This document shows, in pieces, positions 24,949 through 45,829 of a stretch of 64,000 nt of DNA (the first letter of the stretch is position 1; the number at the start of each line of letters is the position of its first letter). Made by a program: the position numbers and the translations under genes. The stretch lies in the NCBI GenBank assembly GCA_964497425.1, contig CAZCCR010000005.1:206-64205 (forward strand), written 5' to 3'. This DNA is from an uncultured Gaiellales bacterium (lineage in GTDB: Bacteria; Actinomycetota; Thermoleophilia; BMS3ABIN01). The notes under the pieces are model-generated. The model worked only from the letters and a program-made list of their open reading frames with translations, was not told the origin of the DNA and ran no database searches.

Positions 24949-24955
24949 CAGGGGT

Positions 24956-27367: not shown

Positions 27368-27403
27368 CCTCCATGAGAGCATGCCCTTGCGGAAGCTGAC
27401 AAT

Positions 27404-30400: not shown

Positions 30401-30616
30401 GAGATCGATAGCCTCGACCTGCGCATCAGTTACCGCGGACACTCCATCGACCTGCGGCTCACGCACGACTCACTCGCTGTCGACGGACACGACACCCCCG
30501 CTGCCCCCATCACCCTTTCCGTCGACGACAGCGTCAGTGAATTCGTCAGCGGCACGACCAGCACCTACCGCTTCTCCGGCAAGGCCGCGGAGGAAGACCC
30601 TATCGACCGGGGATAG
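27404..30616 (+). CDS. Fusion of beta-phosphoglucomutase (HAD) with a glycoside-hydrolase-family-65 alpha-glucoside phosphorylase
   Basis: N-terminus LFDLDGVL...VEDAVAGV is HAD/PgmB. The remainder has the GH65 N-domain, the (alpha/alpha)6 catalytic domain with HIFWDELF, and the C-domain. 1070 aa. Confidence 0.85.
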   Translation: MTCNCPVFTLTPRDYDAVLFDLDGVLTRTASVHAAAWKRLFDAFLRQRSADTGAPFVPFDIEADYQRYVDGKPRYAGVADFLKSRGIELPPGTDEDGPGTQSVRELGDRKDRYFLEYLEEHGAEPYSESLSLVRKLRLHGIRTAVVSSSNNCEAVLVAAGIADLFDTRVDGRDITRLGLEGKPAPDAFLEATRRLGSEPERSIVVEDAVAGVAAGSAGGFGCVIGVDRSGHAQQLRQAGADVVVTDLSQVQVTEEPPSSWSLVFEDFDAEREGIRESLCTLGNGYYGTRGAAAWATADGIHYPGTYLACGYNRLRSTVAGRVLENEDLVNLPNWLALDFRIDGGDWFDVNAVRIISYRQELDIRRGMLLRTISFEDNRGRRSTLRTRRLVSMGDMHLGAMELSLTAENWSGEVTVRSAIDGRVVNAGARLYRKYNNRHLEQLAAEAVGGELLYLQVRTSQSHIHVAQAARTQAFIDGGLLQAERSIINEPGYIAQEQRFAVGEGRTLVVEKLASFYTSRDHAISECGLEACKAARRAGRFDAVMADHVLAWRHLWRRFDVQIRPAEPGFRLNIQMLLRLNMFHLLQVVSPNSFGLDIGVPARGWTGEAYQGHIFWDELFIFPFFNHRMPEITRTLLMYRYRRLGEARANARSAGFRGAMFPWQSGSDGREETGKLNLNPRSGRWVPDNTYLQRHVGSAIAYNAWQYFQVTHDMEFMNSYGAELILDIARFWSSIAVFSEERRRYEIRGVMGPDEFHDSYPDASEPGIDNNAYTNIMAVWVICRALEVLDMLSDMRQEELRELLGLSAEEITRWDDISRRMYVPFHGDGIISQFEGYEDLLDFDWQDYETRYGNIQRLDLILEAEKDSVNRYKASKQADVLMLFYLFSSEELRELFARLEYPFEYETIPRNIAYYVGRISHGSTLCRVVFSWVLARSDRRGSMNMFAEALQSDIKDIQQGTTAEGIHLGAMAGAVDLVQRVWTGIEVKGDVLQLTPELPREIDSLDLRISYRGHSIDLRLTHDSLAVDGHDTPAAPITLSVDDSVSEFVSGTTSTYRFSGKAAEEDPIDRG

Positions 30617-32867: not shown

Positions 32868-34163
32868 TCAACCGCTATCAGACAGAAGCTTGCGGTGCAG
32901 CATATGCAGCGCGGCCCTGACAGCGGCGGCGCGCACGTCCTCCCGCCCGCCGGGAAAATCGTAGCGCTCGACCACATCCCCCTCTTCCGAGGAGGCGCAG
33001 ATGAACACCAGGCCCACGGGCTTCTCCGCCGTGCCGCCGGAGGGACCGGCGATACCGGTGACGCCCAGACCGTAATCGGCGCCAGTGAGCGCCCTCACCC
33101 CCAGGGCCAGCTGCTGGGCCACCGGCTCGGAGACGGCGCCCACATTGTCCAGCACCTCCCGGCGCACCTTCAGCACGGCGCGCTTCACCTCGTTGTCGTA
33201 TGCGGTCACTCCTCCCAGGAAGAACCCTGACGAACCGGGGACGCTGGTGATGGCACCCCCCAGGAGACCGCCGGTGCAGGACTCGCCCACCGCCAGGGTC
33301 CTCTTGTGCTCCATCAACAAACCGCCAACCACCTCTTCGATGGATTCGCCCGCTGAAAAATACCACTCATCGAGTTCCCGCCGGACAGCCGCCAGAGCGG
33401 CTTCCACCTTCTCCTCCGCCTCCACGGCGAACAGGACATCCAGGGTCACCTCACGATACGAAGCGCAGATGCCGACCTCGGCGCCGGTCCCCGCCAGCAG
33501 CCGCACCGCCGCTTCGCTCACCGGCGGCTCGCCGCAGCCGTAGAAGCAGAGCATCCGCCTCAGCCTCGGCGCAGCCTTCTCCATCACTGCCCGCACGTCA
33601 GGGACGGAAACGGCTTCCTCCCACATGGCCCGCATCTCCCAGGGGACCCCCGGCAGCGCCACTATCACGGCGCCGCCGCCGCTCACCACGAAGCCGGGCG
33701 CTGTCCCCGCCGGAGGCAGGGGCACACTGCCCGTGGGCATCTCCGCCTGTTTCCGCTGACAAGGCTCCAGGGAAGCGGCGGAAGCCGGGGACGGTCCGTT
33801 CACGCCTTCCCGTTCCAGCGCCGACCCTTTCTGCCTGTCGAGCCAGGCGGCAACCGCAGCCTCCACCATTGTCTCCGCCGCGGCGTTCAGCTCCAGCTCC
33901 AGCCCCAGGGCCGATGCCACCGCCGGGGCAGTCACATCGTCTCCGGTAGGACCCAGACCGCCGGTGACGACAACCAGCGACGGCTTGCGTGAGAGAGCAA
34001 GGACGAGCGCGTCCTCTATCGCCCCCGCTGAGTCGGGGACGGTCAACGACATCGCCACCGGCACGCCCTCCCTTTCCAGCCGGCTGGCGAGCCAGACACT
34101 GTTGGTATCGGTCACGTCACCGCGACACAGTTCGCTGCCCACCGTCAGGAGAACCGCGCTCAT
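32868..34163 (-). CDS. cinA: Competence/damage-inducible protein CinA (MoCF-binding N-domain plus CinA C-domain)
   Basis: C-domain LAVGESCTGGLLGGAITSVPGSS. Start taken at ATG 34161-34163 (MSAVLLTVGSEL), with a 4-bp overlap with pgsA. Confidence 0.85.
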   Translation of the reverse strand: MSAVLLTVGSELCRGDVTDTNSVWLASRLEREGVPVAMSLTVPDSAGAIEDALVLALSRKPSLVVVTGGLGPTGDDVTAPAVASALGLELELNAAAETMVEAAVAAWLDRQKGSALEREGVNGPSPASAASLEPCQRKQAEMPTGSVPLPPAGTAPGFVVSGGGAVIVALPGVPWEMRAMWEEAVSVPDVRAVMEKAAPRLRRMLCFYGCGEPPVSEAAVRLLAGTGAEVGICASYREVTLDVLFAVEAEEKVEAALAAVRRELDEWYFSAGESIEEVVGGLLMEHKRTLAVGESCTGGLLGGAITSVPGSSGFFLGGVTAYDNEVKRAVLKVRREVLDNVGAVSEPVAQQLALGVRALTGADYGLGVTGIAGPSGGTAEKPVGLVFICASSEEGDVVERYDFPGGREDVRAAAVRAALHMLHRKLLSDSG

Positions 34164-34786
34164 CGCCTGTCCGTCTCCAGGTATCGGCGGGCTCGGGAGA
34201 AATAATCGACACCCGATACCACCGTTATCAGGGTGGCGACGATGATCAGATACCAGCTGAGCGGTCGTTCCCACAGGTAGGCGAACCCTGGAACGATGAG
34301 TGTGACGATGGCCGCCATCTGGCTGGTGGTCTTGATCTTGCCCAGGCCGCTGGCGGGGATGACCACCTTCTCCGCCGCCGCCGCCATCCTGAGGCCGGAG
34401 ACGGCGAACTCGCGGGCGATGATTATCATCGCTATCCAGGGGGACAACCTGTCCAGCGAGACCAGTCCCACCAGGGCGGCGGATATGAGCAGCTTGTCCG
34501 CCAGCGGATCAAGGAACTGGCCGAACACGGTGACGGAATCACGCGAGCGGGCGAAGTAGCCGTCCAGGGTGTCCGTCGCCGACGCCAGCACGAATATGCC
34601 CGCCGCCAGCCAGTCGCCATGGGGGAACCGGGCCTGTTCCAACAGGAAGAATAGGAATACCGGGATGAGCAGCACCCGGATGACGCTGAGTCCGTTGGCC
34701 AGGTTCACCGCCGTCTTCCGGACCTTCCGGGAAGGTCCCGGGTCTGTCGACGCCTCCGGCTCCATGGCTTTTTCAGCTCCCTCCAC
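34160..34786 (-). CDS. pgsA: CDP-diacylglycerol--glycerol-3-phosphate 3-phosphatidyltransferase
   Basis: 208 aa. CDP-alcohol phosphotransferase motif DTLDGYFAR...GQFLDPLADK. Confidence 0.85.
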   Translation of the reverse strand: MEGAEKAMEPEASTDPGPSRKVRKTAVNLANGLSVIRVLLIPVFLFFLLEQARFPHGDWLAAGIFVLASATDTLDGYFARSRDSVTVFGQFLDPLADKLLISAALVGLVSLDRLSPWIAMIIIAREFAVSGLRMAAAAEKVVIPASGLGKIKTTSQMAAIVTLIVPGFAYLWERPLSWYLIIVATLITVVSGVDYFSRARRYLETDRR

Positions 34787-34789
34787 CCG

Positions 34790-35578
34790 TCAGGGCAGCT
34801 CGGCTACGCTATCGGGGGTAATGATATAGACTCCGCCATTCAGCCGTTGCGACTGGCCGTTGACCTCCACCAGCAATGTGTTTCCAATGTTGAGGATGAG
34901 CTTGTTGGAAGGAAGTTCGGACGGCGTGAAGGTGAAGGTCTTGCTCTCCCCCGCCGCCAGCACGTTCTCCCAGATGATCTCACCGTCCTCGTTGTCCTTG
35001 CGGATACGCACCCAGCTGTCCTCCACGTCCGCGGTGAGCACCAGGCTCTCCAGCTGCCGTGGCTGAGTCTGGGTAGGCGTCACCGCTGCAGCGGTCTCCG
35101 CCGGGACCGTGGCCGTAGCGACCGTATCGGCGCCCGTTGCCGTGGTGGTGACGAGCGTGGGCTTCTCACTGGTGGAGTTGCCCCAACCCAGATAGGCGAG
35201 CACGGCGATGATCAGCACCGCGAATATGGCCACGAACAGGTAGTTGGTCTGCTTGCGGGACTTGCGCTCGGCGCCGGACCTGCCACGCTTGCCCGGTTTG
35301 CGCGATTTGCCCGTCTGCACCACCAGGTGCTCCTTGTGGTCCCCGGTGCCGTAACGGTCGTTGTATTCGTCGAGGATGAGCTGATAATCGATTCCCAGGT
35401 ATTCGGCATAGGTCCTGAGGAAGCCCTTGACGTAGGTGCCGGCGGGCAACACGTCGAAGTCTTCATTCTCCATCGCCTGGATATACTTGACCCTTATCTT
35501 GGTGTCGGCTTCCGCTTTCTGCAGCGATATGTCGCGGCGCACGCGGGCGTCACGCAGGGTCGTCCCTATCTCAAACAT
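34790..35578 (-). CDS. rodZ: RodZ-like HTH/transmembrane cytoskeleton protein
   Basis: N-terminal HTH (TLRDARVRRDISLQKAEADTKIRVKYIQAMEN), basic linker, TM helix, and a C-terminal DUF4115-like beta domain. Confidence 0.7.
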   Translation of the reverse strand: MFEIGTTLRDARVRRDISLQKAEADTKIRVKYIQAMENEDFDVLPAGTYVKGFLRTYAEYLGIDYQLILDEYNDRYGTGDHKEHLVVQTGKSRKPGKRGRSGAERKSRKQTNYLFVAIFAVLIIAVLAYLGWGNSTSEKPTLVTTTATGADTVATATVPAETAAAVTPTQTQPRQLESLVLTADVEDSWVRIRKDNEDGEIIWENVLAAGESKTFTFTPSELPSNKLILNIGNTLLVEVNGQSQRLNGGVYIITPDSVAELP

Positions 35579-35686
35579 TCCTGACCATCCATATCAGAGT
35601 CCCCGGCCGGCCTGCCGTCCCGATGCAGGCATTCTATCAGCTAAGGATGTGTCCACGGTGGAAAAACTAACACTTTAACAGGGTCA

Positions 35687-35850: not shown

Positions 35851-36063
35851 GCCGTCTCCCCCGGGATGGCTGACAGGAAGGCATCGGTTCCCGGCCGGAG
35901 GACAGGAAGACGTCCACCGCTGGAGATGATGATTGCCCCAGGGGCAGGGAAAAGCCCCGGAGCCGTCAAAAATATATGAAACATGACTGGGAAAGGAGCC
36001 GCCTATGGCTGCATTCAAACGGCCGGTGTGTTTTTGGAAGAAGCATTGAAAGAGGAGAGCATT

Positions 36064-37128
36064 ATGCACTACAACATCAGCAGACGCGACTTCCTCAAGC
36101 TGTGTGGCGGTACAGCGGCGATGCTCGGACTCTCCCAGGCCTGGGTGCCGCAGATCGCCAGGGCACTGGAACAGGCGGCCAAACGTCCGCCGGTGGTCTG
36201 GCTGAGTTTCCAGGGCTGCTCCGGCTGCTTTGAATCACTGGCCAAGGCCCAGTACCCGGATGTGGCTTCCATCGTCCTTGACGTCATCAGCCTCAACTAC
36301 CAGGAAGTAATCATGGCGCCCGCGGGTTCCCTCGCTGAGAAGAACCTTGCGGACACCGTCGCCGCCGGCGGATACGTTACGCTGGTGGAGGGGGCCGTCG
36401 CCACCGAAATACCTGAGGCTATGATGGTCGCCGGCAGGACTTCCCAGGAGATAGTCAAGGAAGTGGCTGAAGGCGGCGCGGCTACTATCGCCGTGGGAAC
36501 CTGTGCGACCTACGGCGGGGTCCAGGCCATGAAGCCCAACCCCACGGGAGCCAAGGGCGTCAGGGACGTCATCAGCACCCCCGTGGTCAACGTCCCCGGC
36601 TGCCCGGTGAACCCGGATACACTCGTTTCCACCATCACCTACTACCTGCTGCACAAGCAGGCGCCGCCCATGGACGGTGAAGGCAGGCCCAAGTTCGCCT
36701 TCAGCCAGAAGGTGCACGAGAACTGCCAGCGCCGGGCCCATTTCGACGCCGGCGAGTACGTGGAGCAGTACGGCAGCGAGGAAGAGGCCAAACACTATTG
36801 TCTGTACAAGATGGGCTGCAAGGGTCCGGAGACCCACTCACCCTGCCCCCTGACACTGTGGAACAGCAAACAGAACTGGTGCGTCGGCTGCGGCAACGGC
36901 TGCATCGGCTGCATGGAGCCGGATTTCTGGGACAAGTTCGCCGGCTTCTATGAAAGGCTGCCCAACGTGCCGGTGCCCGGTTTCGTCGGCGTCAAGTCCT
37001 CGGCGGACTATATCGGTTCAACCCTGGTGACGGCCACCATGGCCGGTATCGGCATACATGCCATCGCCACCGCCGCCAAGGGCAGGTTCAAGGAAAAGGA
37101 TGACATATCGGAAGGGAGTGATAACTGA
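36064..37128 (+). CDS. [NiFe(Se)]-hydrogenase small subunit (Tat signal, C-terminal membrane anchor)
   Basis: Twin-arginine signal SRRDFLK; proximal-cluster motifs GCSGC and GTCATYGG...GCP; distal H..C..C. The medial region NWCVGCGNGCIGC has extra Cys. C-terminal TM helix. The ORF track starts upstream at 35983. Confidence 0.9.
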   Translation: MHYNISRRDFLKLCGGTAAMLGLSQAWVPQIARALEQAAKRPPVVWLSFQGCSGCFESLAKAQYPDVASIVLDVISLNYQEVIMAPAGSLAEKNLADTVAAGGYVTLVEGAVATEIPEAMMVAGRTSQEIVKEVAEGGAATIAVGTCATYGGVQAMKPNPTGAKGVRDVISTPVVNVPGCPVNPDTLVSTITYYLLHKQAPPMDGEGRPKFAFSQKVHENCQRRAHFDAGEYVEQYGSEEEAKHYCLYKMGCKGPETHSPCPLTLWNSKQNWCVGCGNGCIGCMEPDFWDKFAGFYERLPNVPVPGFVGVKSSADYIGSTLVTATMAGIGIHAIATAAKGRFKEKDDISEGSDN

Positions 37129-38744
37129 TGGCCAGAGTCGTAGTAGACCCGGTGACCAGGCTGGAGGGTCACCTGCGCATCGAGGTCGAAGTGGACAACG
37201 GCGTGGTCAAGGACGCCTGGGCCAGCACCACCCTCTTCCGTGGTTTTGAGATCTTCATCAAGGACCGCGACCCGCGGGACGCCTGGCATATCGCCCACCG
37301 CATCTGCGGTGTCTGCCCAACCTCTCATGGCATCGCCGCCACCCAGGGGCTGGAGGACTCCTTCGGAGTCACGCCTCCGGACAACGCGGTGCTTGTTAGG
37401 AACCTGATGGAGATAGCCCAGTACCTGCATTCCCATGTCCTCTGGTTCTACGGCCTCAACGCCTTCGACTATGTGGATGTGGTCAGCGCCCTGTCGGCCG
37501 AAGCTTCCACACCGGCGCTGAAGGCGGTGCAGGAGCGCCTGCAGGCCTTCGTCGACAGCGGCCAGCTGGGCTTTCTCGCCAACGGCTACTGGGGTCATCC
37601 GGCGATGCTGCTGCCGCCCGAGGTCAACCTGGAACTGGCCGCCCATTACCTGCAGGCACTGGACATCCAGGCCAAGGCGGCGCGGGCGCTTGCCGTTTTC
37701 GGCGGCAAGTTCCCTTACCACATGTCTACGCCTCCGGGCGGTGTCACCACCATCCCCACACTCGAGGATGTCAACAACTACGAGACCATCATGAAAGAGG
37801 TGAACGACTTCGTCCTCAACGTGATGGTGCCGGATACGCTGGCGGCGGGTGCCGCCTATATCGACCTGGCCAAGATCGGCTCCGGTGTAGGCAATTTCTT
37901 CACCTGGGGCGTACTGGAAGACGCCCAGAGCCGCGATCCCTACCAGCGGGCGCTGCCGCGCGGCGCCATCTTCGGCGGAAAGCTCGCCGTGGAACAGGTC
38001 ACTCCGGCGGACGCGGTGGAATACGTCAGCCACAGCTGGTACACACCGGACTCCGGCGGCGGCAAGAACCCGGGCGACGAGGACGCCACCACCGAACCTC
38101 AGTACACCGGCATGCCTGAGCAACTGACCCCGGATGACAAGTACACCTGGACCAAGACGACGCAGATAAAGGACAACCAGATGGAGGTAGGCACCCTGGC
38201 GCGCATGCTCATCGCTTACCTCTCGGACGCGCCCGGCGCCAAGAAGATCGTCGACGACGCCCTGGCTGCGCTGGGAGCCTCCGGCCAGCCGGAGATACTG
38301 GTATCGGCCCTTGGCCGCCTGGCGACCAAGCCGCTGGAAGCGGCGCTGATCACCCAGAAGATGGAGAAGGACCTGGCCATGCTCAAGGAGAACATCGTCG
38401 CCGGCAAGAGCGAATGGTTCACACCCAACGAGGTCCCCGACAGCGGTGAGGGGGTGGGCGCCTGGGACGCCCCGCGCGGCTCCCTGGCCCACTTCCACCG
38501 CATCGAGGACGGCAAGATCGCCAACTACCAGGCGACGCCGGCCTCCAACTGGAACTTCTCCGCCCGTGACGACAGCGGCGCGCGCGGACCGGTGGAGGAA
38601 GCGCTGGTCGGCACACCGGTGGCCGACCCGGAGAAACCGCTGGAGATACTGAGGGTTGTTCACACCTTCGACCCATGAATCGCCTGCGCGGTTCACGTGA
38701 TTGAACCGAAAAGCAACAAGGTCTACAAGTTCCAGGTCCGTTAG
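37128..38744 (+). CDS. [NiFeSe]-hydrogenase large subunit; selenocysteine encoded by in-frame TGA 38676-38678 (ORF track truncates at 38678)
   Basis: N-terminal Ni-binding RICGVC. Translation through the TGA gives DP-U-IACAVH followed by a 15-aa tail and TAG at 38742-38744, restoring the conserved DPCxxCxxH C-terminal motif with Sec. Confidence 0.75.
38679..38710 (+). other. Putative bacterial SECIS hairpin immediately 3' of the UGA-Sec codon
   Basis: GGTTCA-CGTGAT-TGAACC (38690-38707), a perfect 6-bp stem with a hexaloop, beginning 11 nt after the UGA. Confidence 0.45.
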
Positions 38745-38756
38745 GTGGTGGGAGAC

Positions 38757-39467
38757 ATGGAAGACCGGGTAAACGTAAAACAGAGACATTGGGTCTACAT
38801 CCTGCTCCACTGGCTGATAGTCAGCGTCGTCAGCCTGCTTGCCTTCACCGGTCTCTACATACACCGGCCCTTCTTCAGCCTCGGCTCCGCCGGGGAGCCG
38901 GTGCTTGTGATGTCGTGGATACGCTGGATCCATTTCATCGCTGCGGCCGTCCTGATAGAGACCGTCGCCATCCGGCTGGAACTGTCCTTCTTCTCGCACT
39001 TCGATGCCGACTGGAAGGACGTGGGTCCCAGCAGGAAGAACTTCAGGGCCCTGCCGGAAGCCGTATCCTACTACCTGTTCGCCAGGGATGACCATCGTTA
39101 CTGGCGGAAGCTGAACCCCATCATGAACACCATACTGATACCGATCGCCCTGCTTTTCTACCTGATCGCGATCCTGACGGGGTTCGCCCTCTTCCAGGGC
39201 TCATTCTTCTGGGGCCTGACGACAACCAATACCCTCTTCGGCTGGGTCTATTCGGTCTTCGGAGGCCAGCAGGCGACCAGGAACTGGCACTACTACCTGG
39301 TGTGGGTGTTCGCTATATACGCCGCGTTCCATGTATATCTCGCCATATTGCGGGCGACGAGGGAACGGGACAACACCTTCGGCAGCATGCTCAACGGGTG
39401 GAGACTGGTTCCGCGCAAGTATGCACCCATCAAGGGTGGTTCGGACAGGGAAGACAAGAGGAAGTGA
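38757..39467 (+). CDS. Ni/Fe-hydrogenase b-type cytochrome subunit
   Basis: About 236 aa, 4 TM helices, with conserved His/Trp (HWLIVS, WIHFIAA, YYLVWVF..FHVY). Start taken at ATG 38757, just after the extended large-subunit stop. Confidence 0.8.
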   Translation: MEDRVNVKQRHWVYILLHWLIVSVVSLLAFTGLYIHRPFFSLGSAGEPVLVMSWIRWIHFIAAAVLIETVAIRLELSFFSHFDADWKDVGPSRKNFRALPEAVSYYLFARDDHRYWRKLNPIMNTILIPIALLFYLIAILTGFALFQGSFFWGLTTTNTLFGWVYSVFGGQQATRNWHYYLVWVFAIYAAFHVYLAILRATRERDNTFGSMLNGWRLVPRKYAPIKGGSDREDKRK

Positions 39468-39482: not shown

Positions 39483-40031
39483 ATGTCCAGTATAGATGAA
39501 CTGGACGCCCCGGGACCAGGTCCCGGGGCGTCCCCCGGCATCGCAACATGTGACCTCCTGGTACTTGGTGTCGGCAACGTCATGATGGGAGACGAAGGCG
39601 TCGGCGTGAAGGTCGCCAGAAACCTCATCAAGGACTACGAGTTCCCGCCTGGCGTCGAGGTGGTGGACGGCGGCACCGGCGGACTCGCCCTGTTGTCATT
39701 TATCCTCCATGCCCGCGAGGTGCTGGTCATCGACGCAGTGGAAGCCGGAGCCGAGCCCGGGAGCATATTCATCTTTCCCGCCCGCAGCATACAGGAGCGC
39801 AAGGGCATCATGACCTCCCTTCACGATATGGGGATCCTCGACGTCCTCAGCACCGCCGGGCTCCTGGGCGGCAACCCCCCCGCCACCGTCATAGGCGTAC
39901 AACCGGCTAAGATGGACGAATTCGGCGGCGGTCTCTCTCCCCGGGTGGCGAACAAGATACCGCGGGTGACCGAACTCGTGCTTGAGCACCTGGAAAAAGC
40001 CGGCCATCCGGCCCGGGCAAAAGGAAGCTAG
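39483..40031 (+). CDS. hyaD: Hydrogenase maturation endopeptidase (HyaD/HybD family)
   Basis: LVLGVGNVMMGDEGVGV...DGGTGG...VIDAV is the family signature. Confidence 0.8.
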   Translation: MSSIDELDAPGPGPGASPGIATCDLLVLGVGNVMMGDEGVGVKVARNLIKDYEFPPGVEVVDGGTGGLALLSFILHAREVLVIDAVEAGAEPGSIFIFPARSIQERKGIMTSLHDMGILDVLSTAGLLGGNPPATVIGVQPAKMDEFGGGLSPRVANKIPRVTELVLEHLEKAGHPARAKGS

Positions 40032-40035: not shown

Positions 40036-40377
40036 TTGCACGAGTACGCCGTCACCGAGAGCATCCTGAAGATAGTGCATGAGGAAGCCGGCAAGGCCGG
40101 TGGAGAGCGCGTCGAGAGCGTCACCATAGTCATCGGCGAGCTGTCCACCTTCGTGGACCAGTCCATCGAGTTCTATTTTCAGGCTCTTTCACAAGGAACT
40201 GTCGCCGAAGGGGCCCGGCTCATCTTCGAGAAGGTGAAGGCAAGGGCCGTCTGCGGTGACTGCGGCAAGGAATTCGAGCCCAGCCGCGTCTGCCTTACCT
40301 GCCCCCGATGCCATTCGCCCTTATTCGAGGTAAAGCAGGGCAGGGAGCTTTATATCGACAACCTGGAGATACACTGA
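40036..40377 (+). CDS. hypA: Hydrogenase nickel-incorporation protein HypA
   Basis: Begins MHEYAVTESIL from a TTG start. Zn-finger CGDCG...CPRC. Confidence 0.8.
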   Translation: MHEYAVTESILKIVHEEAGKAGGERVESVTIVIGELSTFVDQSIEFYFQALSQGTVAEGARLIFEKVKARAVCGDCGKEFEPSRVCLTCPRCHSPLFEVKQGRELYIDNLEIH

Positions 40378-40399: not shown

Positions 40400-41053
40400 A
40401 TGAGGATCGATGTCAAGAAGAATATCCTGGAGAGCAACGATGCCCTGGCCGCCGCCAACCGCGAGAGATTGAAGCGACATGGCGCCAGCATGCTGAACCT
40501 GATGGCCTCCCCCGGCGCCGGCAAGACCAGCGTCATCATCAAGGCCATCGAAGGCGCTGCCGGCGACCCCGCCATTGCCGTCATCGAGGGAGACATCGCT
40601 TCCGAGATCGATTCCCTTGCCATCGAGGCCCTGGATATCCCCGCCATCCAGATAAACACGGGTGGGTCGTGCCACCTGACAGCGTCCATGATCGGTGCGG
40701 CCCTCGACCATCTGGACCTGGATGCCCTGGATATCATCATCATCGAGAACGTGGGCAACCTGGTCTGTCCCGCCGAGTTCGACCTTGGGGAGGATTTCCG
40801 GGTGATGATCTCCAGCATCGCCGAAGGACACGACAAGCCATACAAGTACCCCCTGATGTTCCGTGAAGTGGACGCGGTGCTGGTGAACAAGATCGACCTG
40901 GCCCCCTTCTGCGACTTCGACATGGGCCAGTTCCGCCGCGTCGTGGGCGAACTCAACCCCGAGGCGGCCATCATCGAGATGTCATGCACGGAGGGACAGG
41001 GCACGGATGAATGGAGCCGCTGGCTCTCGGGGATCTCAGCCACGGTCAGATAG
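40400..41053 (+). CDS. hypB: Hydrogenase nickel-incorporation GTPase HypB
   Basis: P-loop SPGAGKTS; ENVGNLVCP; NKIDL. Confidence 0.9.
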   Translation: MRIDVKKNILESNDALAAANRERLKRHGASMLNLMASPGAGKTSVIIKAIEGAAGDPAIAVIEGDIASEIDSLAIEALDIPAIQINTGGSCHLTASMIGAALDHLDLDALDIIIIENVGNLVCPAEFDLGEDFRVMISSIAEGHDKPYKYPLMFREVDAVLVNKIDLAPFCDFDMGQFRRVVGELNPEAAIIEMSCTEGQGTDEWSRWLSGISATVR

Positions 41054-41098: not shown

Positions 41099-43465
41099 AT
41101 GTCAGCCACTGAGCAGTCCACAACCGGGAATGTCCGCTTCGCGGTCTCCGTCACCGGGGTCGTACAGGGGGTCGGTTTCCGTCCCTTCATCCACCAGCTG
41201 GCCACGGACAGCGGGCTGGCCGGTTTCGTGCTCAACACGTCCGGAGGCGTGACCATCGAGGTCGAGGGCTTACGGGACCGGATCGACGGTTTCATCACCG
41301 GTATCCGCGAGAAGGCTCCTCCCCTGGCCCGCATCACCGATATCAGTGTCGAGCCTGTCAAGGCCAGGGGTGGCGACGGTTTCTCCATCCTGCCATCCAC
41401 CGCCCAGCCGGGACAGCGCCAGCTGGTGAGCCCCGACAGCTGCACCTGCGACCTCTGCCTGGAGGAGATGCGTGACCCCGGCGACCGCCGCTACCGCTAT
41501 CCTTTCATCAACTGCACCAACTGCGGTCCCCGTTTCACCATCATCGAGGGTCTCCCCTACGACCGGCCCCTGACGACCATGCGCAAGTTCACCATGTGCC
41601 CCCAGTGCCTGTCCGAGTATGAGGACCCCGGCGACCGCCGTTTCCACGCCGAGCCCAACGCCTGTCCCAGCTGCGGGCCCAGCCTCTGGCTGGAGGACGG
41701 CTCCGGGACGATGGTGCCTGTCCGGGACGCCATCGAAGAGTCTGCGGCCGCTCTGTCCCGGGGACAGATAGTGGCCATCAAGGGCCTGGGCGGGTTCCAG
41801 CTGGCATGCCTGGCAACGGACGAGGAAGCCGTCAGACGCCTGCGGAGGCGCAAGCACCGGCCGCACAAGCCGTTCGCTCTCATGTCCGGCAGTGTGGAGG
41901 ATGTCTCCCTTTACTGCCGGATGTCCCCTGAAGAGGAAGAACTGCTGGCCTCCCCCCAGCGCCCTATCGTGCTGCTGGAGTCGCTCCCGGACAACGGCAT
42001 AGCAGCCTCCGTCGCCCCGGCGCTGGACCACCTCGGTTTCATGCTGCCCTGTACCCCCCTGCACTTCCTGTTGACGGACTCGGCGCCGGGTCCACTGGTG
42101 ATGACCAGCGGTAATATCAGCGATGAACCCATCTGCCGTACCAACACGGAGGCTGTCAGCAGGCTGAGCGGCATCGCCGACCTGTTCCTTCTGCATAACC
42201 GGGGGATACGTTCTACCTATGACGACAGTGTCGTGATGGTCGAGCAGGGCAGGACGGTGATGCTCCGGCGGGCAAGGGGTTACGCGCCGCTGCCGGTCAA
42301 ACTTCCCCATGGGTCGGGAGATACCATCCTCGCCACCGGCGCCGACCTCAAGAGCAGCTTCAGCCTCACGGTGGGTGACGACTGTTTCGTCTCCCAGCAC
42401 ATCGGTGACCTGGACAACGCCGAGACCCTCTTCCATCTGGAATATACCGAATCCCTCTACGAACAGCTCTTTCAGGCCCCGCCATCCCGTTTTGCCTGTG
42501 ACCGCCATCCCGGTTACCTCTCTTCCGCCTACTGTCTGGAACACTCCCCCTCGCCGCTGAAGATCCAGCATCACCGGGCTCATGTTGCTTCATGCCTTGC
42601 CGACAACGGCTGCTCCGGCGACGCGATCGGGGTGGCTATGGACGGCACCGGCTTCGGTGACGACGGCAGCATCTGGGGCGGCGAGTTCTTTACCGGCAGT
42701 ATCGCCGGCGGATTCGACCGCGCCGCACAGATCCAGGGTTTCCCCCTGCTGGGCGGTGAAGCAGCCATCCACGAACCCTGGCGTACCTCCCTGGCCCTTG
42801 TCTGGAAACATTCATCGGAGAACCTCGATCCCATAGCCGAACGTTTCCGCCTGGCCGGTCCAAGGAAGAAGCTACTGCTCAGGCAGCTGGAGGGAGGACT
42901 CAACTGCCCCACCACATCCAGCTGCGGCCGGCTGTTCGACGCCGTAGCAGCTCTGGCCCTGGGACGCACCGAGGTGAGTTTCGAGGCGCAGGCCGCCATG
43001 GAACTGGAGGTCGCCGCAAGGCGCTGCGCCGCCGCCGAAGGCGGCGGCGCAGCGCCCCCGTCCCTTTCAGAGTCCCTGCCCTACCGTCTCTCCCTGGACC
43101 GGCGGCCGGCCGTCTGGCGGCTCTCTCCTTCCCGCCTTGTCGCCCGGTTGATCGATGACCTTTTGTCGGACAAGGACCCCGGTTATATCGCCCTGCAGTT
43201 CCATCTTGCCCTCGCTGACGGCATCGTCCGCGTCTGCCGTCACCTGTCGGAGCGGAACGGACTCAATTCCGTCGCCCTTAGCGGTGGCTGCTTTCAAAAC
43301 AGATTACTGCTGCGCCTGGTATGCGCCGGACTCGAGCAAAACTCGCTTACGCCGCTACTTCACCGCCAGGTGCCTCCCAATGACGGTGGCATCACCCTGG
43401 GCCAGGCGGCGATCGCCGCCTGCGCGGACAAGGACCTTTCTTCTGGAAAGTCCTCTCCGAAATGA
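41099..43465 (+). CDS. hypF: Carbamoyltransferase HypF
   Basis: 788 aa. Acylphosphatase domain; two CxxC...CxxC Zn fingers; YrdC domain; Kae1-like carbamoyltransferase domain. Confidence 0.9.
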   Translation: MSATEQSTTGNVRFAVSVTGVVQGVGFRPFIHQLATDSGLAGFVLNTSGGVTIEVEGLRDRIDGFITGIREKAPPLARITDISVEPVKARGGDGFSILPSTAQPGQRQLVSPDSCTCDLCLEEMRDPGDRRYRYPFINCTNCGPRFTIIEGLPYDRPLTTMRKFTMCPQCLSEYEDPGDRRFHAEPNACPSCGPSLWLEDGSGTMVPVRDAIEESAAALSRGQIVAIKGLGGFQLACLATDEEAVRRLRRRKHRPHKPFALMSGSVEDVSLYCRMSPEEEELLASPQRPIVLLESLPDNGIAASVAPALDHLGFMLPCTPLHFLLTDSAPGPLVMTSGNISDEPICRTNTEAVSRLSGIADLFLLHNRGIRSTYDDSVVMVEQGRTVMLRRARGYAPLPVKLPHGSGDTILATGADLKSSFSLTVGDDCFVSQHIGDLDNAETLFHLEYTESLYEQLFQAPPSRFACDRHPGYLSSAYCLEHSPSPLKIQHHRAHVASCLADNGCSGDAIGVAMDGTGFGDDGSIWGGEFFTGSIAGGFDRAAQIQGFPLLGGEAAIHEPWRTSLALVWKHSSENLDPIAERFRLAGPRKKLLLRQLEGGLNCPTTSSCGRLFDAVAALALGRTEVSFEAQAAMELEVAARRCAAAEGGGAAPPSLSESLPYRLSLDRRPAVWRLSPSRLVARLIDDLLSDKDPGYIALQFHLALADGIVRVCRHLSERNGLNSVALSGGCFQNRLLLRLVCAGLEQNSLTPLLHRQVPPNDGGITLGQAAIAACADKDLSSGKSSPK

Positions 43466-43496: not shown

Positions 43497-43730
43497 ATGT
43501 GCCTGGCAGTCCCGGCGAGGATAACCAAGATCGACGACCAGATGGCCACCGTCGAGGTGGGCGGGATAACCCGTGATGCTTCTACCGTCCTCCTGCCCGA
43601 TGCAGGCGTCGGCGACTATGTATTGATACACGCCGGCTTCGCCATCTCCCTCGTTGACGAGGACGAGGCCCTTGAGACCATCAGGCTGTTCGACGAGATG
43701 GCCGCCGCCGGCGACACCGATCCGGACTGA
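43497..43730 (+). CDS. hypC: Hydrogenase assembly chaperone HypC
   Basis: 77 aa starting MCLAVP. Confidence 0.85.
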   Translation: MCLAVPARITKIDDQMATVEVGGITRDASTVLLPDAGVGDYVLIHAGFAISLVDEDEALETIRLFDEMAAAGDTDPD

Positions 43731-43734: not shown

Positions 43735-44823
43735 ATGCCCCTCACCTTTCTCGACGATTTCCGCAGCGCTCCCCACGTCCAGCGCATGCTCCAGGAGCTG
43801 GACGGCCACACCGGCCTGGAGCTGAAGATCATGGAGGTCTGTGGCACCCATACCATGGCCATCTCCCGCCATGGCATCCGCCAGGCGGTGCCGGAAGGAA
43901 TCACCCTCATATCAGGGCCCGGCTGTCCCGTCTGCGTCACCGCCAACGCCGATATCGACCGATTCATCGAGACGGCCCTCATACCCGGCGTCATCGCCGC
44001 TTCCTTCGGCGACATGCTGCGGGTGCCCGGAACCAGGATGGGCCTGGCGGAAGCACGCAGCCACGGCGCCGACGTGCGCATCGTCTACTCCCCCCTGGAT
44101 GCCCTCGCCATGGCGCGCGACAACCCGGGCCGCGACGTGGTCTTCTTCGGCGTCGGCTTCGAGACCACGGCGCCCACGGTAGCCGCCACGGTGATGGCGG
44201 CTCGGGAGCAGGGCCTGGACAACTTCTACATCCAGCCGGTACACAAGCTGGTCCCTCCCGCCCTGGAGGCCCTCTGCGCCCTTCCCCGGCTGGCCATCGA
44301 CGCCTTCCTCTGTCCCGGTCACGTCAGCGCCATCATCGGGCCCGGTGCCTATGAGGCGATCGCGTCGGAACATGAGGTCCCCTGCGTCATCGCCGGCTTC
44401 GAACCTGTGGATATACTTCAGGCCCTGTCCATGCTGGCTGTGCAGGTCGAAAGCGGCCGCGCCGATGTCGAGCTGCAATACACACGGGGTGTCAGGGCCG
44501 CGGGCAACCCGGAGGCGATGGCGCTCATGTACCAGGTATTCGAGACCGCCGACGCGGAGTGGCGCGGGCTGGGGACCATCCCCGGCAGCGGTCTGGTTCT
44601 CAGGGAAGAGTACTCCGGCTTCGACGCCGGCGTGCACTATCAGGTTGATACCAGCTACTCTCGCGAGCCCAGGGGATGCATCTGCGGTGAGATACTGACC
44701 GGCCTGAAGACGCCGCGGCAATGCGGCCTGTTCCGCAAGGCTTGCGACCCGGATCACCCGGTTGGGCCGTGCATGGTATCCTCCGAGGGCACCTGCGCCG
44801 CCTATTTCCAGTATGAAGACTGA
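43735..44823 (+). CDS. hypD: Hydrogenase maturation factor HypD
   Basis: CGTHT, GPGCPVCV and FGVGFETTAPT motifs. ATG at 43735; the ORF track extends it upstream to 43654. Confidence 0.9.
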   Translation: MPLTFLDDFRSAPHVQRMLQELDGHTGLELKIMEVCGTHTMAISRHGIRQAVPEGITLISGPGCPVCVTANADIDRFIETALIPGVIAASFGDMLRVPGTRMGLAEARSHGADVRIVYSPLDALAMARDNPGRDVVFFGVGFETTAPTVAATVMAAREQGLDNFYIQPVHKLVPPALEALCALPRLAIDAFLCPGHVSAIIGPGAYEAIASEHEVPCVIAGFEPVDILQALSMLAVQVESGRADVELQYTRGVRAAGNPEAMALMYQVFETADAEWRGLGTIPGSGLVLREEYSGFDAGVHYQVDTSYSREPRGCICGEILTGLKTPRQCGLFRKACDPDHPVGPCMVSSEGTCAAYFQYED

Positions 44824-45829
44824 CGGGGGTGAAAAGGTCCTGCTGGCTCATGGCAGCGGCGGCCGCCTGACCCAGGAGCTGATCCGGTCCCGCTTCAGCC
44901 CCGCTCTGTCCAACCCCATCCTCGACCGCATGGAGGATTCCGCCACCATCGAGGCGCAGGGCAGGCTGGCCTTCACCATCGACAGCCATGTGGTCTCCCC
45001 ACTCTTCTTCCCCGGCGGTGATATCGGCCGCCTTTCCATCACCGGCACCGTCAACGACCTGGCCATGGCCGGCGCCCGGCCCCTTTACATCTCAGCCGGG
45101 TTCATCATCGAGGAGGGCCTGGGCCATAAGGAACTGGCACGCGTCGTCTCATCCATGAGCGGGGCCGCAGCGGAAGCCCGTGTCGATGTCGTCGCCGGTG
45201 ATACCAAGGTGGTGGAACGCGGCGCTGCGGATGGACTTTTCATCACCACCAGCGGTATCGGCATCATCCCCGACGGCGTCCGCCTCTCCGCCTCAGCCGT
45301 CTGCCCGGGAGACGCTGTCATCGTCAGCGGCACCATCGGCGACCACGGCGTCGCCATTCTCAGCCGGCGGCAGGGTATGGATTTCGAGGCGCCGGTAAGC
45401 AGTGACTGCGCTCCCCTCAACGACCTGGTGGAAGTGATGTTGGGAGCTTCCGGGAAGATACATGCTCTCAGGGACCCCACCAGGGGAGGCCTGGCGGCAA
45501 TACTCAACGAGATCGCCACCGCCTCTTCCGTAGCCATCGAGGTGGACGAGGGACTCATACCATACCGCTCAGAGGTCAGGGCCGCCTGCGAGCTGCTGGG
45601 ACTGGACCCCATGGTTCTGGCCAACGAAGGGAAACTGGTGGCCTTCGTCGCCGAGCAGGACGCCGGCAAGGTGCTGCGCGCGATGAAGGCACATGATCAT
45701 GGAACAGAGGCGGCCGTTATCGGAAGGGTGGAAAAGGCCGACAGGCCGCGGGTCTATGTGCGCACCCTGCTGGGCAGCCGCCGCGTCCTGGCCATGCCCA
45801 GCGGCGAACAATTGCCCCGCATCTGCTGA
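44813..45829 (+). CDS. hypE: Hydrogenase maturation factor HypE
   Basis: PurM-like fold with a C-terminal PRIC motif. ATG at 44813 overlaps the hypD stop. Confidence 0.9.
   Translation: MKTDGGEKVLLAHGSGGRLTQELIRSRFSPALSNPILDRMEDSATIEAQGRLAFTIDSHVVSPLFFPGGDIGRLSITGTVNDLAMAGARPLYISAGFIIEEGLGHKELARVVSSMSGAAAEARVDVVAGDTKVVERGAADGLFITTSGIGIIPDGVRLSASAVCPGDAVIVSGTIGDHGVAILSRRQGMDFEAPVSSDCAPLNDLVEVMLGASGKIHALRDPTRGGLAAILNEIATASSVAIEVDEGLIPYRSEVRAACELLGLDPMVLANEGKLVAFVAEQDAGKVLRAMKAHDHGTEAAVIGRVEKADRPRVYVRTLLGSRRVLAMPSGEQLPRIC

What the first reader, a model, noticed from the sequence alone, without database searches (positions are those of the whole stretch)
38676..38744. In-frame UGA plus downstream hairpin: the hydrogenase large subunit is most likely a selenoprotein ([NiFeSe] type)
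The six-frame track ends the large subunit at TGA 38676-38678, after ...LRVVHTFDP. Without the C-terminal DPCxxCxxH motif two of the four Ni/Fe cysteine ligands are lost, yet the rest of the 10-gene locus is intact, including the protease that processes that C-terminus. Reading through the TGA gives DP-U-IACAVH-VIEPKSNKVYKFQVR, ending at TAG 38742-38744. That is the DPUxxCxxH motif of known [NiFeSe] hydrogenases (Desulfomicrobium and Desulfovibrio Hys, methanococcal Vhu/Fru). The 15-residue tail after the His is the length of extension normally removed by HyaD/HybD. A perfect hairpin GGTTCA-CGTGAT-TGAACC starts 11 nt after the UGA, the position bacterial SECIS elements occupy. The next gene (cyt b) starts at 38757, immediately after the extended stop. 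An automated annotation would call this gene truncated or a pseudogene.
Basis: partly seen in the sequence, partly recalled or inferred. Interest (0 to 1): 0.85.

Follow-up and report, generated by a model that had tools for sequence, protein, structure and literature searches.

The report
Selenocysteine-containing membrane-bound [NiFeSe] hydrogenase gene
The apparent premature stop in this hydrogenase gene is very probably a conserved selenocysteine codon with its RNA insertion signal, so the enzyme is an intact nickel-iron-selenium hydrogenase that databases list as truncated; it is a new member of a known enzyme type.

Summary
The large-subunit ORF (37128-38678) stops at TGA 38676-38678, exactly where the first Cys of DPCxxCxxH belongs. 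Read-through gives DP-U-IACAVH plus 15 residues and ends at TAG 38742-38744. A hairpin (stem 38689/90-38695 with 38702-38707/08, loop CGUGAT) starts 11 nt after the TGA.

70 of 149 related large subunits stop at the same position. All 21 distinct DNA sequences examined carry TGA, keep the downstream frame and have the same hairpin. Synonymous sites inside the hairpin are 95-100% conserved, against 44-68% in Cys-type relatives. Three of seven stem pairs show compensatory changes. All four constraints of the published bacterial SECIS model are met. One relative (L133) has selB and tRNA-Sec directly upstream of its operon.

Two things could not be checked: the Sec machinery in this organism's own genome, and selenium incorporation.

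The enzyme is not a HysA orthologue. It is Tat-exported, membrane-anchored and linked to a cytochrome b. It comes from a probable Thermoleophilia/Gaiellales-like actinobacterium, in a large all-Sec clade whose database entries are truncated. I rate it a new member of a known kind, of moderate interest.

The parts
35983..37128 (+). Hydrogenase small subunit. The start is either 35983 or Met28 at 36064. It has a Tat motif SRRDFLK (36079-36099), Cys300 (36880-36882) at the position of the medial-cluster Pro, and a hydrophobic C-terminal anchor.
   Evidence: Pfam Oxidored_q6 and NiFe_hyd_SSU_C. TIGR00391 at 364 bits plus a Tat signal. Alignment to 1frf_S and 1h2a_S. Coordinates.
37128..38744 (+). 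Hydrogenase large subunit precursor of 538 aa, read through the UGA: M1...D515-P516-U517-I-A-C520-A-V-H523 plus a 15-residue extension.
   Evidence: Translation. PF00374 at 495 bits. Aligned end to end, including the extension, with 1frf_L and 1h2a_L.
37299..37328 (+). N-terminal Ni/Fe-binding motif R58-I-C60-G-V-C63-P-T-S-H67.
   Evidence: Translation. R58, C60, G61, C63, P64 and H67 are invariant in 46 relatives.
38676..38678 (+). In-frame TGA, the predicted selenocysteine codon (U517), at the position of the first Cys of DPCxxCxxH.
   Evidence: TGA at the same position in all 21 distinct relatives examined at DNA level. 70 of 149 protein relatives end at ...DP.
38689..38708 (+). Predicted bacterial SECIS hairpin: a 7-bp stem (38689-38695 with 38702-38708) and a 6-nt apical loop CGUGAU (38696-38701). 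It lies over the codons A-V-H|V-I-E-P, the protease cleavage site.
   Evidence: Fold of -9.4 kcal/mol. 96.6% of cells paired, 3 of 7 pairs with compensatory change, and 0 of 500 shuffles reach the covariation score. Consensus constraints taken from PMC13188914.
38697..38741 (+). C-terminal extension VIEPKSNKVYKFQVR (15 aa), predicted to be removed by the maturation protease after His523. TAG stop at 38742-38744.
   Evidence: It aligns with the extensions of the 1frf_L and 1h2a_L precursors.
38757..39467 (+). b-type cytochrome membrane subunit.
   Evidence: PF01292. TIGR02125 scores 114.9 bits, just under its cutoff of 121.5.
39483..40031 (+). HyaD/HybD-family maturation endopeptidase.
   Evidence: PF01750. 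TIGR00072 at 140.6 bits and TIGR00140 at 139 bits.
40036..40377 (+). HypA.
   Evidence: TIGR00100 at 103.9 bits.
40400..41053 (+). HypB-like GTPase.
   Evidence: PF02492. Same position as in the relatives' operons.
41099..43465 (+). HypF.
   Evidence: Five HypF domains.
43497..43730 (+). HypC.
   Evidence: TIGR00074 at 84.7 bits.
43735..44823 (+). HypD. The likely ATG start is 43735; the longest ORF begins at 43654.
   Evidence: PF01924 at 484 bits. Start candidates.
44813..45829 (+). HypE. The likely ATG start is 44813; the longest ORF begins at 44762.
   Evidence: AIRS and AIRS_C. Start candidates.

Best explanation
The gene encodes the large subunit of a [NiFeSe] hydrogenase.

Decoding (inferred). 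When the ribosome reaches UGA 38676-38678, the hairpin 11 nt downstream acts as a bacterial SECIS. Its apical loop is CGUGAU, with G in second position. SelB carrying Sec-tRNA(Sec) binds the hairpin, selenocysteine is inserted as residue 517, and translation continues for 21 codons to UAG 38742-38744.

Maturation (inferred from established [NiFe] hydrogenase biology). U517 and C520, together with C60 and C63, ligate the Ni-Fe centre assembled by HypA-F. The HyaD/HybD-type protease then cuts after His523 and removes 15 residues.

Location and function (inferred). The large subunit is exported with the small subunit, which carries a Tat signal. The small subunit has three predicted [4Fe-4S] clusters and a C-terminal anchor helix. 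The complex sits on a b-type cytochrome, so electrons from H2 enter the quinone pool.

Shown here: the codon, the frame, the conserved and covarying hairpin, the intact operon, and selB plus tRNA-Sec beside a family member. Not shown: actual Sec insertion, the sel genes of this organism, and the direction and partners of electron flow.
For: Codon and product.
- The TGA sits exactly at the first Cys of DPCxxCxxH. The read-through product aligns to the end of the precursor forms of solved [NiFe] large subunits.

Conservation of the TGA.
- 70 of 149 relatives end at ...[FY]DP.
- A neighbour-joining tree needs only about 4 Sec/Cys switches, and the window lies in a 42-cluster clade that is all Sec-type.
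- All 21 distinct Sec-type DNA sequences, at 41-93% protein identity, have TGA rather than TAA or TAG. All keep the frame for at least 21 codons. 20 of 21 keep C..H; L002 has Gln for the His.

Hairpin.
- It is at the same place in 21 of 21 sequences, at -7 to -12 kcal/mol.
- Third-codon positions inside it are 95-100% conserved, against 44-68% in 25 Cys-type relatives. Third positions outside it are similarly variable in both sets.
- 96.6% of cells are paired. Compensatory changes occur in 3 of 7 pairs, two of them at the cost of amino-acid changes: Pro to Arg in L133 and Glu to Ala in L149. No shuffle out of 500 reaches the covariation score, and slid registers collapse.
- All four constraints of the consensus bacterial SECIS model are met: loop 6 nt, stem 6-7 bp, G at loop position 2 followed by U, 17 nt between the UGA and the loop, MFE -9.4.

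Machinery and genetic code.
- L133 has selB (SelB-wing_2 and SelB-wing_3 domains) and tRNA-Sec (anticodon UCA) immediately upstream of its Sec-type operon.
- TGA is the normal stop of 27 of 40 window genes, so the code is standard.

Not an assembly artefact.
- The identical protein is found on five contigs from separate metagenomes.
Against: No selA, selB, selD or tRNA-Sec lies in the 64-kb window or in the ±10-kb flanks of the six closest relatives' loci. The machinery is therefore unverified for this organism.

The single-sequence fold is not better than shuffles.

Rfam has no matching family, though it holds few bacterial SECIS models.

There is no proteomic or selenium-labelling evidence.

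Insertion of Cys at the UGA through a SelB-dependent tRNA(ReC) cannot be excluded from sequence alone; PMC13582414 notes this limitation.
Confidence: 0.9

Rival explanations
1. The TGA is a genuine stop: a nonsense mutation or pseudogene gives a truncated, inactive large subunit that lacks two metal ligands.
For: Gene callers and public records end the protein at ...FDP. Examples are P0002 'periplasmic [NiFe] hydrogenase large subunit precursor', 516 aa, and P0007, 512 aa. No sel genes are seen in the window.
Against: The same stop is kept in 70 of 149 relatives down to about 41% identity, with only about 4 switches on the tree. It is always TGA. The downstream 21 codons stay open and conserved, with C..H kept in 20 of 21. 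The hairpin covaries. The nine other operon genes are intact.
Confidence: 0.02
2. Sequencing or assembly error: the true codon is TGC or TGT.
For: Only one base separates TGA from TGC or TGT.
Against: The identical 516-aa product is called on five contigs from separate metagenomes. All close relatives from independent assemblies also have TGA.
Confidence: 0.01
3. The UGA is recoded through the same hairpin and SelB, but cysteine is inserted instead of selenocysteine. This could happen via a tRNA(ReC)-type tRNA or through selenium-limited misacylation, and would give an ordinary [NiFe] enzyme.
For: tRNA(ReC) systems are reported in bacteria and are flagged as a limitation of all sequence-only Sec predictions (PMC13582414).
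Against: The tRNA next to selB in L133 is called tRNA-SeC by ARAGORN, with anticodon UCA. A TGA kept for this long when a one-base change to TGC would give Cys directly argues that the product differs from Cys.
Confidence: 0.05
4. UGA is generally reassigned in this organism to Trp or Gly (codes 4 or 25).
For: None beyond the in-frame TGA itself.
Against: 27 of 40 genes in the window end in TGA and have full-length family matches under the standard code. No other credible in-frame TGA was found in the window.
Confidence: 0.005

Closest known systems
Periplasmic [NiFeSe] hydrogenase HysAB of Desulfovibrio vulgaris Hildenborough and Desulfomicrobium baculatum (PDB 2wpn, 1cc1; HydDB group 1a)
   Same: Sec replaces the first Cys of the C-terminal DPCxxCxxH motif, a terminal Ni ligand. 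The UGA is decoded through a hairpin just downstream. The small subunit has Cys where standard enzymes have the medial-cluster Pro, predicting a medial [4Fe-4S] cluster. The small subunit carries a Tat signal, and a dedicated C-terminal protease is present.
   Different: It is not an orthologue. The large subunit scores 390 bits on the HysA model (cutoff 780), and about 290 bits against HysA chains compared with 465 against Cys-type HynB. The operon has a b-type cytochrome subunit and a small-subunit membrane anchor, whereas Hys enzymes are soluble or lipoprotein forms without a membrane subunit (PMC2628731). The host is a probable actinobacterium, not a sulfate reducer.
Cys-type [NiFe] hydrogenases HynAB of Desulfovibrio fructosovorans and D. 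vulgaris Miyazaki (PDB 1frf, 1h2a; group 1b)
   Same: These are the closest solved sequences, at 465 bits, aligned from residue 4 to 537 including the cleaved extension.
   Different: They have Cys at the U517 position and Pro238, giving a medial [3Fe-4S] cluster, where this small subunit has Cys300. Their redox partner is cytochrome c3, not a cytochrome b.
NCBIfam NF033181 'NiFeSe_hydrog' family of large subunits
   Same: It is the best-scoring curated family. It covers the whole protein including the extension, and it contains both Sec-type (L149 762 bits, L089 631 bits) and Cys-type (P0034, P0052, P0076) relatives.
   Different: The window protein and its clade score 513-536 bits, below the cutoff of 600. 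They form a divergent sister group rather than members under NCBI's threshold.
Membrane-bound cytochrome-b-linked uptake hydrogenases (E. coli Hyd-1 HyaABC, Cupriavidus MBH HoxKGZ, Wolinella HydABC)
   Same: The architecture is the same: a Tat small subunit with a C-terminal anchor helix, a large subunit and a cytochrome b. The small subunit aligns through residue 375 with HoxK and HyaA.
   Different: Those enzymes are all Cys-type, and sequence similarity is lower (330-388 bits). A Sec version of E. coli Hyd-1 exists only as an engineered protein (PMC8020662).
Consensus bacterial SECIS element (bSECISearch model; E. coli fdhF as prototype)
   Same: It lies immediately downstream of the UGA inside the ORF. 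It has a small apical loop with G-U at loop positions 2-3, a 6-7 bp upper stem and 17-nt spacing. From my own knowledge, the minimal fdhF element is likewise a hairpin of about 17 nt set 11 nt after the UGA.
   Different: It is only a single short stem, with no lower stem, internal loop or bulged U. There is no sequence resemblance to fdhF and no Rfam family match.
Sec-containing group 4 [NiFe] hydrogenases found in silico (Takano et al. 2026, PMC13582414)
   Same: It is the same kind of finding: Sec variants overlooked because gene callers stop at the UGA, with a mosaic of Sec and Cys types, a conserved loop G and unchanged operon organisation.
   Different: [quoted passage not shown] Here Sec is at the canonical C-terminal position of a group 1 uptake enzyme.

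Membership tests
[NiFeSe] hydrogenase (Sec-containing [NiFe] large subunit) | Large subunit of the Ni-dependent hydrogenase family with the N-terminal RxCGxCxxxH motif. | tested here: met
   PF00374 at 495 bits. R58-I-C60-G-V-C63-P-T-S-H67, invariant across relatives.
[NiFeSe] hydrogenase (Sec-containing [NiFe] large subunit) | In-frame UGA at the first Cys of the C-terminal DPCxxCxxH motif, with the frame continuing to xxCxxH. | tested here: met
   DP-TGA-IACAVH at 38670-38696. It aligns with DPCIACGVH of 1frf_L and 1h2a_L.
[NiFeSe] hydrogenase (Sec-containing [NiFe] large subunit) | The UGA is conserved among orthologues, with Cys in the remaining homologues (a Sec/Cys pair). | tested here: met
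   70 Sec-type and 79 Cys-type among 149 sequences, with about 4 switches on the tree.
[NiFeSe] hydrogenase (Sec-containing [NiFe] large subunit) | Selenocysteine machinery (selA, selB, selC, selD) in the same genome. | not testable with these tools
   None in the 64-kb window, and the rest of the genome is not available. A family member, L133, has selB and tRNA-Sec adjacent to its operon.
[NiFeSe] hydrogenase (Sec-containing [NiFe] large subunit) | Selenium is actually present at the active site. | not testable with these tools
   Needs 75Se labelling, mass spectrometry or a crystal structure.
[NiFeSe] hydrogenase (Sec-containing [NiFe] large subunit) | The medial Fe-S cluster of the small subunit is [4Fe-4S], with Cys in place of the Pro of standard enzymes. 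| tested here: met
   Cys300 (NWCVGC) aligns with Pro238 of D. fructosovorans (NWPVQA). The same holds for 23 of the 24 Sec-type loci in which the motif was found. The link between this residue and cluster type is from my own knowledge (P238C mutant; Dm. baculatum structure).
HysA orthologue group (NCBIfam NF045518 H2_NiFeSe_large) | Score at or above the curated cutoff of 780 bits. | tested here: not met
   390.5 bits. Relatives score 393-580 bits.
NCBIfam NF033181 NiFeSe_hydrog | Score at or above the curated cutoff of 600 bits. | tested here: not met
   521 bits. The window clade scores 513-536 bits, while neighbouring Sec-type and Cys-type clades pass at 612-762 bits.
Bacterial SECIS element (consensus model, PMC13188914 Fig. 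2) | Apical loop of 3-9 nt and upper stem of 4-16 bp. | tested here: met
   Loop 6 nt, stem 6-7 bp.
Bacterial SECIS element (consensus model, PMC13188914 Fig. 2) | G in one of the first two apical-loop positions, usually followed by G or U. | tested here: met
   The loop is C-G-U-G-A-U. The G is at loop position 1 or 2 in 21 of 21 Sec-type sequences.
Bacterial SECIS element (consensus model, PMC13188914 Fig. 2) | 16-37 nt between the UGA and the apical loop. | tested here: met
   17 nt (38679-38695).
Bacterial SECIS element (consensus model, PMC13188914 Fig. 2) | MFE of -7.5 kcal/mol or lower. | tested here: met
   -9.4 kcal/mol for the window. Three relatives reach only -7.1 or -7.2.
Bacterial SECIS element (consensus model, PMC13188914 Fig. 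2) | Binds SelB and is required for read-through. | not testable with these tools
   Needs a reporter assay or a SelB-binding assay.
HydDB subgroup (1a, 1i or other) | Assignment by the HydDB classifier or a reference phylogeny. | not testable with these tools
   No HydDB reference set was available. Indirect evidence only: the best curated family is NF033181, the closest solved structures are group 1b, and Coriobacteriia relatives (L002, L003) belong to the same radiation.

The most novel reading that the evidence does not exclude
The window represents a large lineage of [NiFeSe] uptake hydrogenases that has not been recognised. These enzymes are membrane-anchored, linked to a cytochrome b, and feed the quinone pool. 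They occur outside sulfate reducers and methanogens: in Thermoleophilia/Gaiellales-like and Coriobacteriia Actinomycetota, and in MAGs labelled Deltaproteobacteria and Fidelibacterota. The Sec state is old and stably inherited. Its SECIS overlaps the protease cleavage site and dictates the peptide there (VHVIEP). Public records systematically truncate the proteins. [quoted passage not shown] It would also supply natural counterparts of the engineered Sec variant of E. coli Hyd-1.
Probability: 0.4. Interest if true: 0.6.

Novelty: new member of a known kind. Interest (0 to 1): 0.5.

Why it matters
Annotation. The gene and at least 70 related database clusters are recorded as proteins that end at Pro516 and lack two metal ligands. 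Surveys of hydrogenases and of selenoproteins therefore misread or miss them.

Biology. Reading the gene correctly adds a cytochrome-b-linked, membrane-bound form in probable Actinomycetota to the known [NiFeSe] enzymes. Those known enzymes are described as soluble periplasmic enzymes of sulfate reducers and cofactor-coupled enzymes of methanogens.

Wider interest. [NiFeSe] enzymes are valued for high H2-production activity and fast recovery from O2. A natural respiratory version is a reasonable target for biochemistry.

Evolutionary detail. The near-identical hairpin across phyla, with amino-acid changes accepted to keep it paired, is a clear case of an RNA signal constraining a protein's processing site.

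None of this changes what is understood about how Sec hydrogenases work.

Tried and rejected
- Rfam scans of the window and of 38600-38800 found no SECIS family. This says little, because Rfam holds few bacterial SECIS models.
- The single-sequence fold significance was null (z = 0.14). I relied on comparative data instead.
- sel genes and tRNA-Sec were looked for by ARAGORN on the window and on 25 Sec-type loci, by Pfam on about 40 window genes, and by tblastn of all 170 loci. The tblastn probes were E. coli SelA, SelB and SelD sequences written from memory, used only as probes. Only L133 gave a hit, which I then confirmed with Pfam and ARAGORN.
- The window's own genome was not among the species representatives found by the genome-contig scan, so its sel genes could not be checked. 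I ran no further search on SelB. Its top 120 hits would have been close relatives of the L133 SelB used as query, which I took to be Coriobacteriia-like, and not this lineage.
- A scan of the window for other in-frame TGAs with coding signal on both sides gave only artefacts: antisense frames, and two adjacent genes that happen to share a frame at 34790.
- I considered a separately translated C-terminal peptide, as with VhuU of Methanococcus voltae. I rejected it because there is no start codon between the TGA and Cys520.
- Literature searches for [NiFeSe] together with Actinobacteria, Coriobacteriia, Thermoleophilia or cytochrome b found no description of this clade. The key review of [NiFeSe] phylogeny (Baltazar et al. 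2011) did not come up in these searches, and I did not try to fetch it.
Full report
**1. The observation**

- The ORF from ATG 37128 ends ...VVHTFDP at TGA 38676-38678.
- The same frame continues as I-A-C-A-V-H-V-I-E-P-K-S-N-K-V-Y-K-F-Q-V-R and stops at TAG 38742-38744.
- Read through, the product is 538 residues with U517, C520 and H523, and 15 residues follow the His.
- GGTTCA (38690-38695) and TGAACC (38702-38707) flank CGTGAT. C38689 and G38708 add a seventh pair. The stem begins 11 nt after the TGA.
- The cytochrome b gene starts at ATG 38757, behind a GGGAG.

The ten-gene operon is complete, with full-length family matches: small subunit, large subunit, cytochrome b, HyaD/HybD-type protease, HypA, HypB, HypF, HypC, HypD and HypE.

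On this sequence alone the hairpin is not thermodynamically remarkable. The 76-nt stretch folds no better than shuffles (z = 0.14). The case therefore rests on comparison with relatives.

**2. Is the TGA real and conserved?**

The identical 516-residue product is called on five contigs from separate JGI metagenomes. That excludes a sequencing error.

A search of the large protein collection returned 120 best relatives.
- All of the top 27, at 93-56% identity, end at ...[FY]DP.
- About half of the full list does the same.
- The rest continue DPC[IL]AC[AT]VH plus about 15 residues.

I fetched DNA for relatives from genomes, assemblies and metagenomes. In all 21 distinct Sec-type sequences (41-93% protein identity to the window):
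- the codon is TGA, never TAA or TAG;
- the frame stays open for 21-31 more codons;
- the peptide x-[AG]-C-[AGS]-V-H follows; in L002 the His is replaced by Gln.

A neighbour-joining tree of 149 large subunits has 70 Sec-type and 79 Cys-type leaves. It needs only about four Sec/Cys switches. The window lies inside a clade of 42 clusters that are all Sec-type. A nonsense mutation in a decaying gene cannot produce this pattern.

In the window, TGA is the ordinary stop of 27 of 40 genes. The genetic code is therefore standard, and this UGA is a local exception.

**3. Is the hairpin a SECIS?**

All 21 Sec-type sequences form a hairpin at the same position, at -7.1 to -12.2 kcal/mol. Most of the 25 Cys-type relatives do not.

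Third-codon positions inside the hairpin (alignment columns 18, 21, 24, 27, 30) are 95-100% conserved in the Sec set and 44-68% in the Cys set. Third positions outside it (columns 6, 9, 36, 45, 48) are about equally variable in both sets.

On the 21-sequence alignment the 7-bp helix behaves as follows:
- it is paired in 96.6% of cells;
- three pairs show changes on both sides: C-G to G-C at the outer pair in five sequences, G-C to C-G in L133, and U-A to G-C in L149;
- none of 500 shuffles reaches the covariation score;
- sliding the register by one to three columns leaves at most 57% of cells paired.

Two of the compensatory changes cost an amino-acid replacement: Pro to Arg in L133 and Glu to Ala in L149. 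There the RNA pairing was kept at the expense of the protein.

The element meets all four constraints of the published consensus model for bacterial SECIS (PMC13188914).

| Constraint | Model | Window |
|---|---|---|
| Apical loop | 3-9 nt | 6 nt |
| Upper stem | 4-16 bp | 6-7 bp |
| Loop G | in first two positions, followed by G or U | C-G-U-G-A-U |
| UGA to loop | 16-37 nt | 17 nt |
| MFE | -7.5 kcal/mol or lower | -9.4 kcal/mol |

A G at loop position 1 or 2 is present in 21 of 21 sequences. This is the feature Takano et al. found to distinguish Sec-type from Cys-type group 4 hydrogenases (PMC13582414).

**4. The selenocysteine machinery**

The window holds only housekeeping and metabolic genes: dut, hflX, miaA, miaB, rny, recA, ftsK, rnj, dapA, lepA, murJ and others. 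It has one tRNA, tRNA-Pro. No sel gene and no tRNA-Sec is present, either here or in the flanks of the closest relatives. The rest of this genome could not be reached. This defining feature remains untested for the organism.

One Sec-type family member supplies indirect evidence. L133 (metagenome contig Ga0123357_10004884, 42% identity) has the same hairpin with a compensatory change. Its gene order is:
- a selB gene with SelB-wing_2, SelB-wing_3 and SelB beta-barrel domains;
- 55 nt later, a tRNA-Sec with anticodon UCA;
- 300 nt further on, the small subunit, the TGA-containing large subunit, the cytochrome b and the protease.

This ties the family physically to Sec decoding.

**5. What kind of enzyme is it?**

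Large subunit:
- The closest solved sequences are Cys-type Desulfovibrio HynB (1frf, 1h2a; about 465 bits, aligned through the extension).
- The canonical [NiFeSe] HysA chains score about 290 bits.
- The HysA NCBIfam model gives 390 bits against a cutoff of 780.
- The best curated family is NF033181 'NiFeSe_hydrog', at 521 bits against a cutoff of 600. Neighbouring Sec-type clades (L149 762 bits, L089 631 bits) and Cys-type clades (612-629 bits) pass it. The window clade scores 513-536 bits and does not.

The enzyme is thus a divergent sister of the broad family in which Sec variants are known, and is not a Hys orthologue.

Small subunit:
- It has a twin-arginine motif, SRRDFLK (residues 33-39).
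- It has a hydrophobic C-terminal helix and aligns with HoxK and HyaA to residue 375.
- Together with the cytochrome b gene, this predicts an outward-facing, membrane-anchored complex that reduces quinone.
- Cys300 aligns with Pro238 of D. fructosovorans. From established knowledge (the P238C mutant and the Dm. baculatum structure), this predicts a medial [4Fe-4S] rather than [3Fe-4S] cluster, a hallmark of [NiFeSe] enzymes.
- The feature is clade-wide. It is found in 23 of the 24 Sec-type loci where the motif could be read, and in 48 Cys-type loci. Seventeen other Cys-type loci, mostly the more distant group 1 enzymes, have Pro.

**6. The organism**

- The closest named relatives are 'bacterium BMS3Abin01' (87% identity) and a 'Gaiellales bacterium' MAG (80%). 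Thermoleophilia MAGs follow at about 54%, and Coriobacteriia MAGs at about 50%.
- The Gaiellales MAG shares the surrounding gene order: recA-ligT ... cinA-pgsA-HTH, then the operon, then ftsK.
- The host is therefore probably a Thermoleophilia/Gaiellales-like member of the Actinomycetota. This is an inference from labels and synteny, not from a marker-gene phylogeny.

**7. Mechanism**

- SelB carrying Sec-tRNA(Sec) binds the hairpin while the ribosome is at the UGA and inserts Sec517.
- Translation ends at UAG 38742-38744.
- HypC-F build Fe(CN)2CO, and HypA and HypB deliver Ni.
- The protease cuts after His523.
- The dimer is exported by the Tat pathway and docks on the cytochrome b.

The hairpin loop and 3' arm are the codons for His523, Val, Ile, Glu and Pro, which span the cleavage site. 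The Sec-type sequences keep V-H-V-I-E-P almost without exception. The Cys-type sequences vary: VHIIHP, VHVIDP, VHVIHP.

Shown here are the codon, the frame, the hairpin with its covariation, the operon, and the selB/tRNA-Sec linkage in a relative. Sec insertion in this organism, the cleavage, and the electron path are inferred.

**8. Comparison with what is known, and novelty**

- Sec at this position of group 1 and group 3 [NiFe] hydrogenases is textbook knowledge (PMC13582414 citing Baltazar 2011; HydDB lists [NiFeSe] variants in groups 1a, 3a and 3c).
[quoted passage not shown] That was already inexact: Nautilia profundicola has a soluble Hys-type enzyme with no membrane subunit.
- I found no description of a cytochrome-b-linked, membrane-anchored Sec-type clade, nor of one in Actinomycetota, in the searchable literature. 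The 2011 phylogenetic review did not come up in these searches, and I did not try to fetch it.
- Public records for the relatives end at the TGA under ordinary names.

I therefore rate this a new member of a known kind. The mechanism is fully conventional. The subfamily, architecture and host are not the described ones.

**9. Verdict**

- Observation: confirmed.
- Interpretation: supported, with 0.9 confidence that this UGA is recoded through the hairpin, and most probably as Sec.
- Interest: 0.5. The finding is solid and useful for annotation and for hydrogenase surveys, but it would not surprise a specialist in mechanism.

Noticed in passing
window 36880-36882 (small subunit Cys300): Cys sits where standard [NiFe] small subunits have the Pro next to the medial cluster (NWCVGC against NWPVQA). 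This predicts an all-[4Fe-4S] wire. It is shared by 23 of the 24 Sec-type loci where the motif was read and by close Cys-type relatives. One Sec-type Thermoleophilia locus (L090) has Pro.
   Followed up: partly
window 38689-38708: The SECIS hairpin lies exactly over the codons of the maturation-protease cleavage site (A-V-H|V-I-E-P). Sec-type genes keep VHVIEP almost without change, while Cys-type relatives vary there, so the RNA signal appears to constrain the processing site.
   Followed up: partly
L133 1-1797: selB (ends at 1346) and tRNA-Sec (1401-1497, anticodon UCA) lie directly upstream of a Sec-type hydrogenase operon: small subunit, large subunit, cytochrome b, protease.
   Followed up: yes
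L002 11555-11580: A Coriobacteriia MAG has U-V-G-C-G-V-Q, with Gln in place of the conserved His of CxxH, and an altered hairpin loop (GUCA). The Coriobacteriia-like Sec-type genes also have a longer, different C-terminal extension (…GKSSFVMSKPTGR).
   Followed up: no
L169 4044-4070: A Cys-type relative ends immediately after the His (DPCLACSIH-stop). It has no C-terminal extension for a protease to remove.
   Followed up: no
L034 about 7521: A Desulfobacterales MAG carries, upstream of its Cys-type group 1 enzyme, a second hydrogenase large subunit with an in-frame TGA (RAYDP-U-MSCATH, resembling the group 3 type). Its downstream hairpin is different.
   Followed up: no
window 12375-14548 (+): A dihaem c-type cytochrome is followed by a very divergent haem-copper oxidase family protein. 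COX1 scores 214 bits, but the best NCBIfam model (ccoN) gives only 41.7 bits against a cutoff of 583. It could be an O2 or an NO reductase, which bears on what the hydrogenase's electrons might reach.
   Followed up: partly
window 1262-3916 (-): An 884-residue protein fuses two CDGSH iron-sulfur domains, a Fer4_19 domain and a Rieske domain to a pyruvate-oxidase-like thiamine-pyrophosphate enzyme. This domain combination is unusual.
   Followed up: no
window 23770-30616 (+): Acetate kinase, XFP phosphoketolase and a 1070-residue fusion of a beta-phosphoglucomutase-family hydrolase with a GH65 glycoside phosphorylase lie in a row. This suggests a disaccharide-to-acetyl-phosphate route.
   Followed up: no
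window 34160-35593 (-): The HTH/RodZ-like gene and the CDP-alcohol phosphatidyltransferase gene are in the same frame, separated by one TGA at 34790-34792. Relatives call them as two genes with a short gap, so this is taken as coincidence and not recoding.
   Followed up: partly
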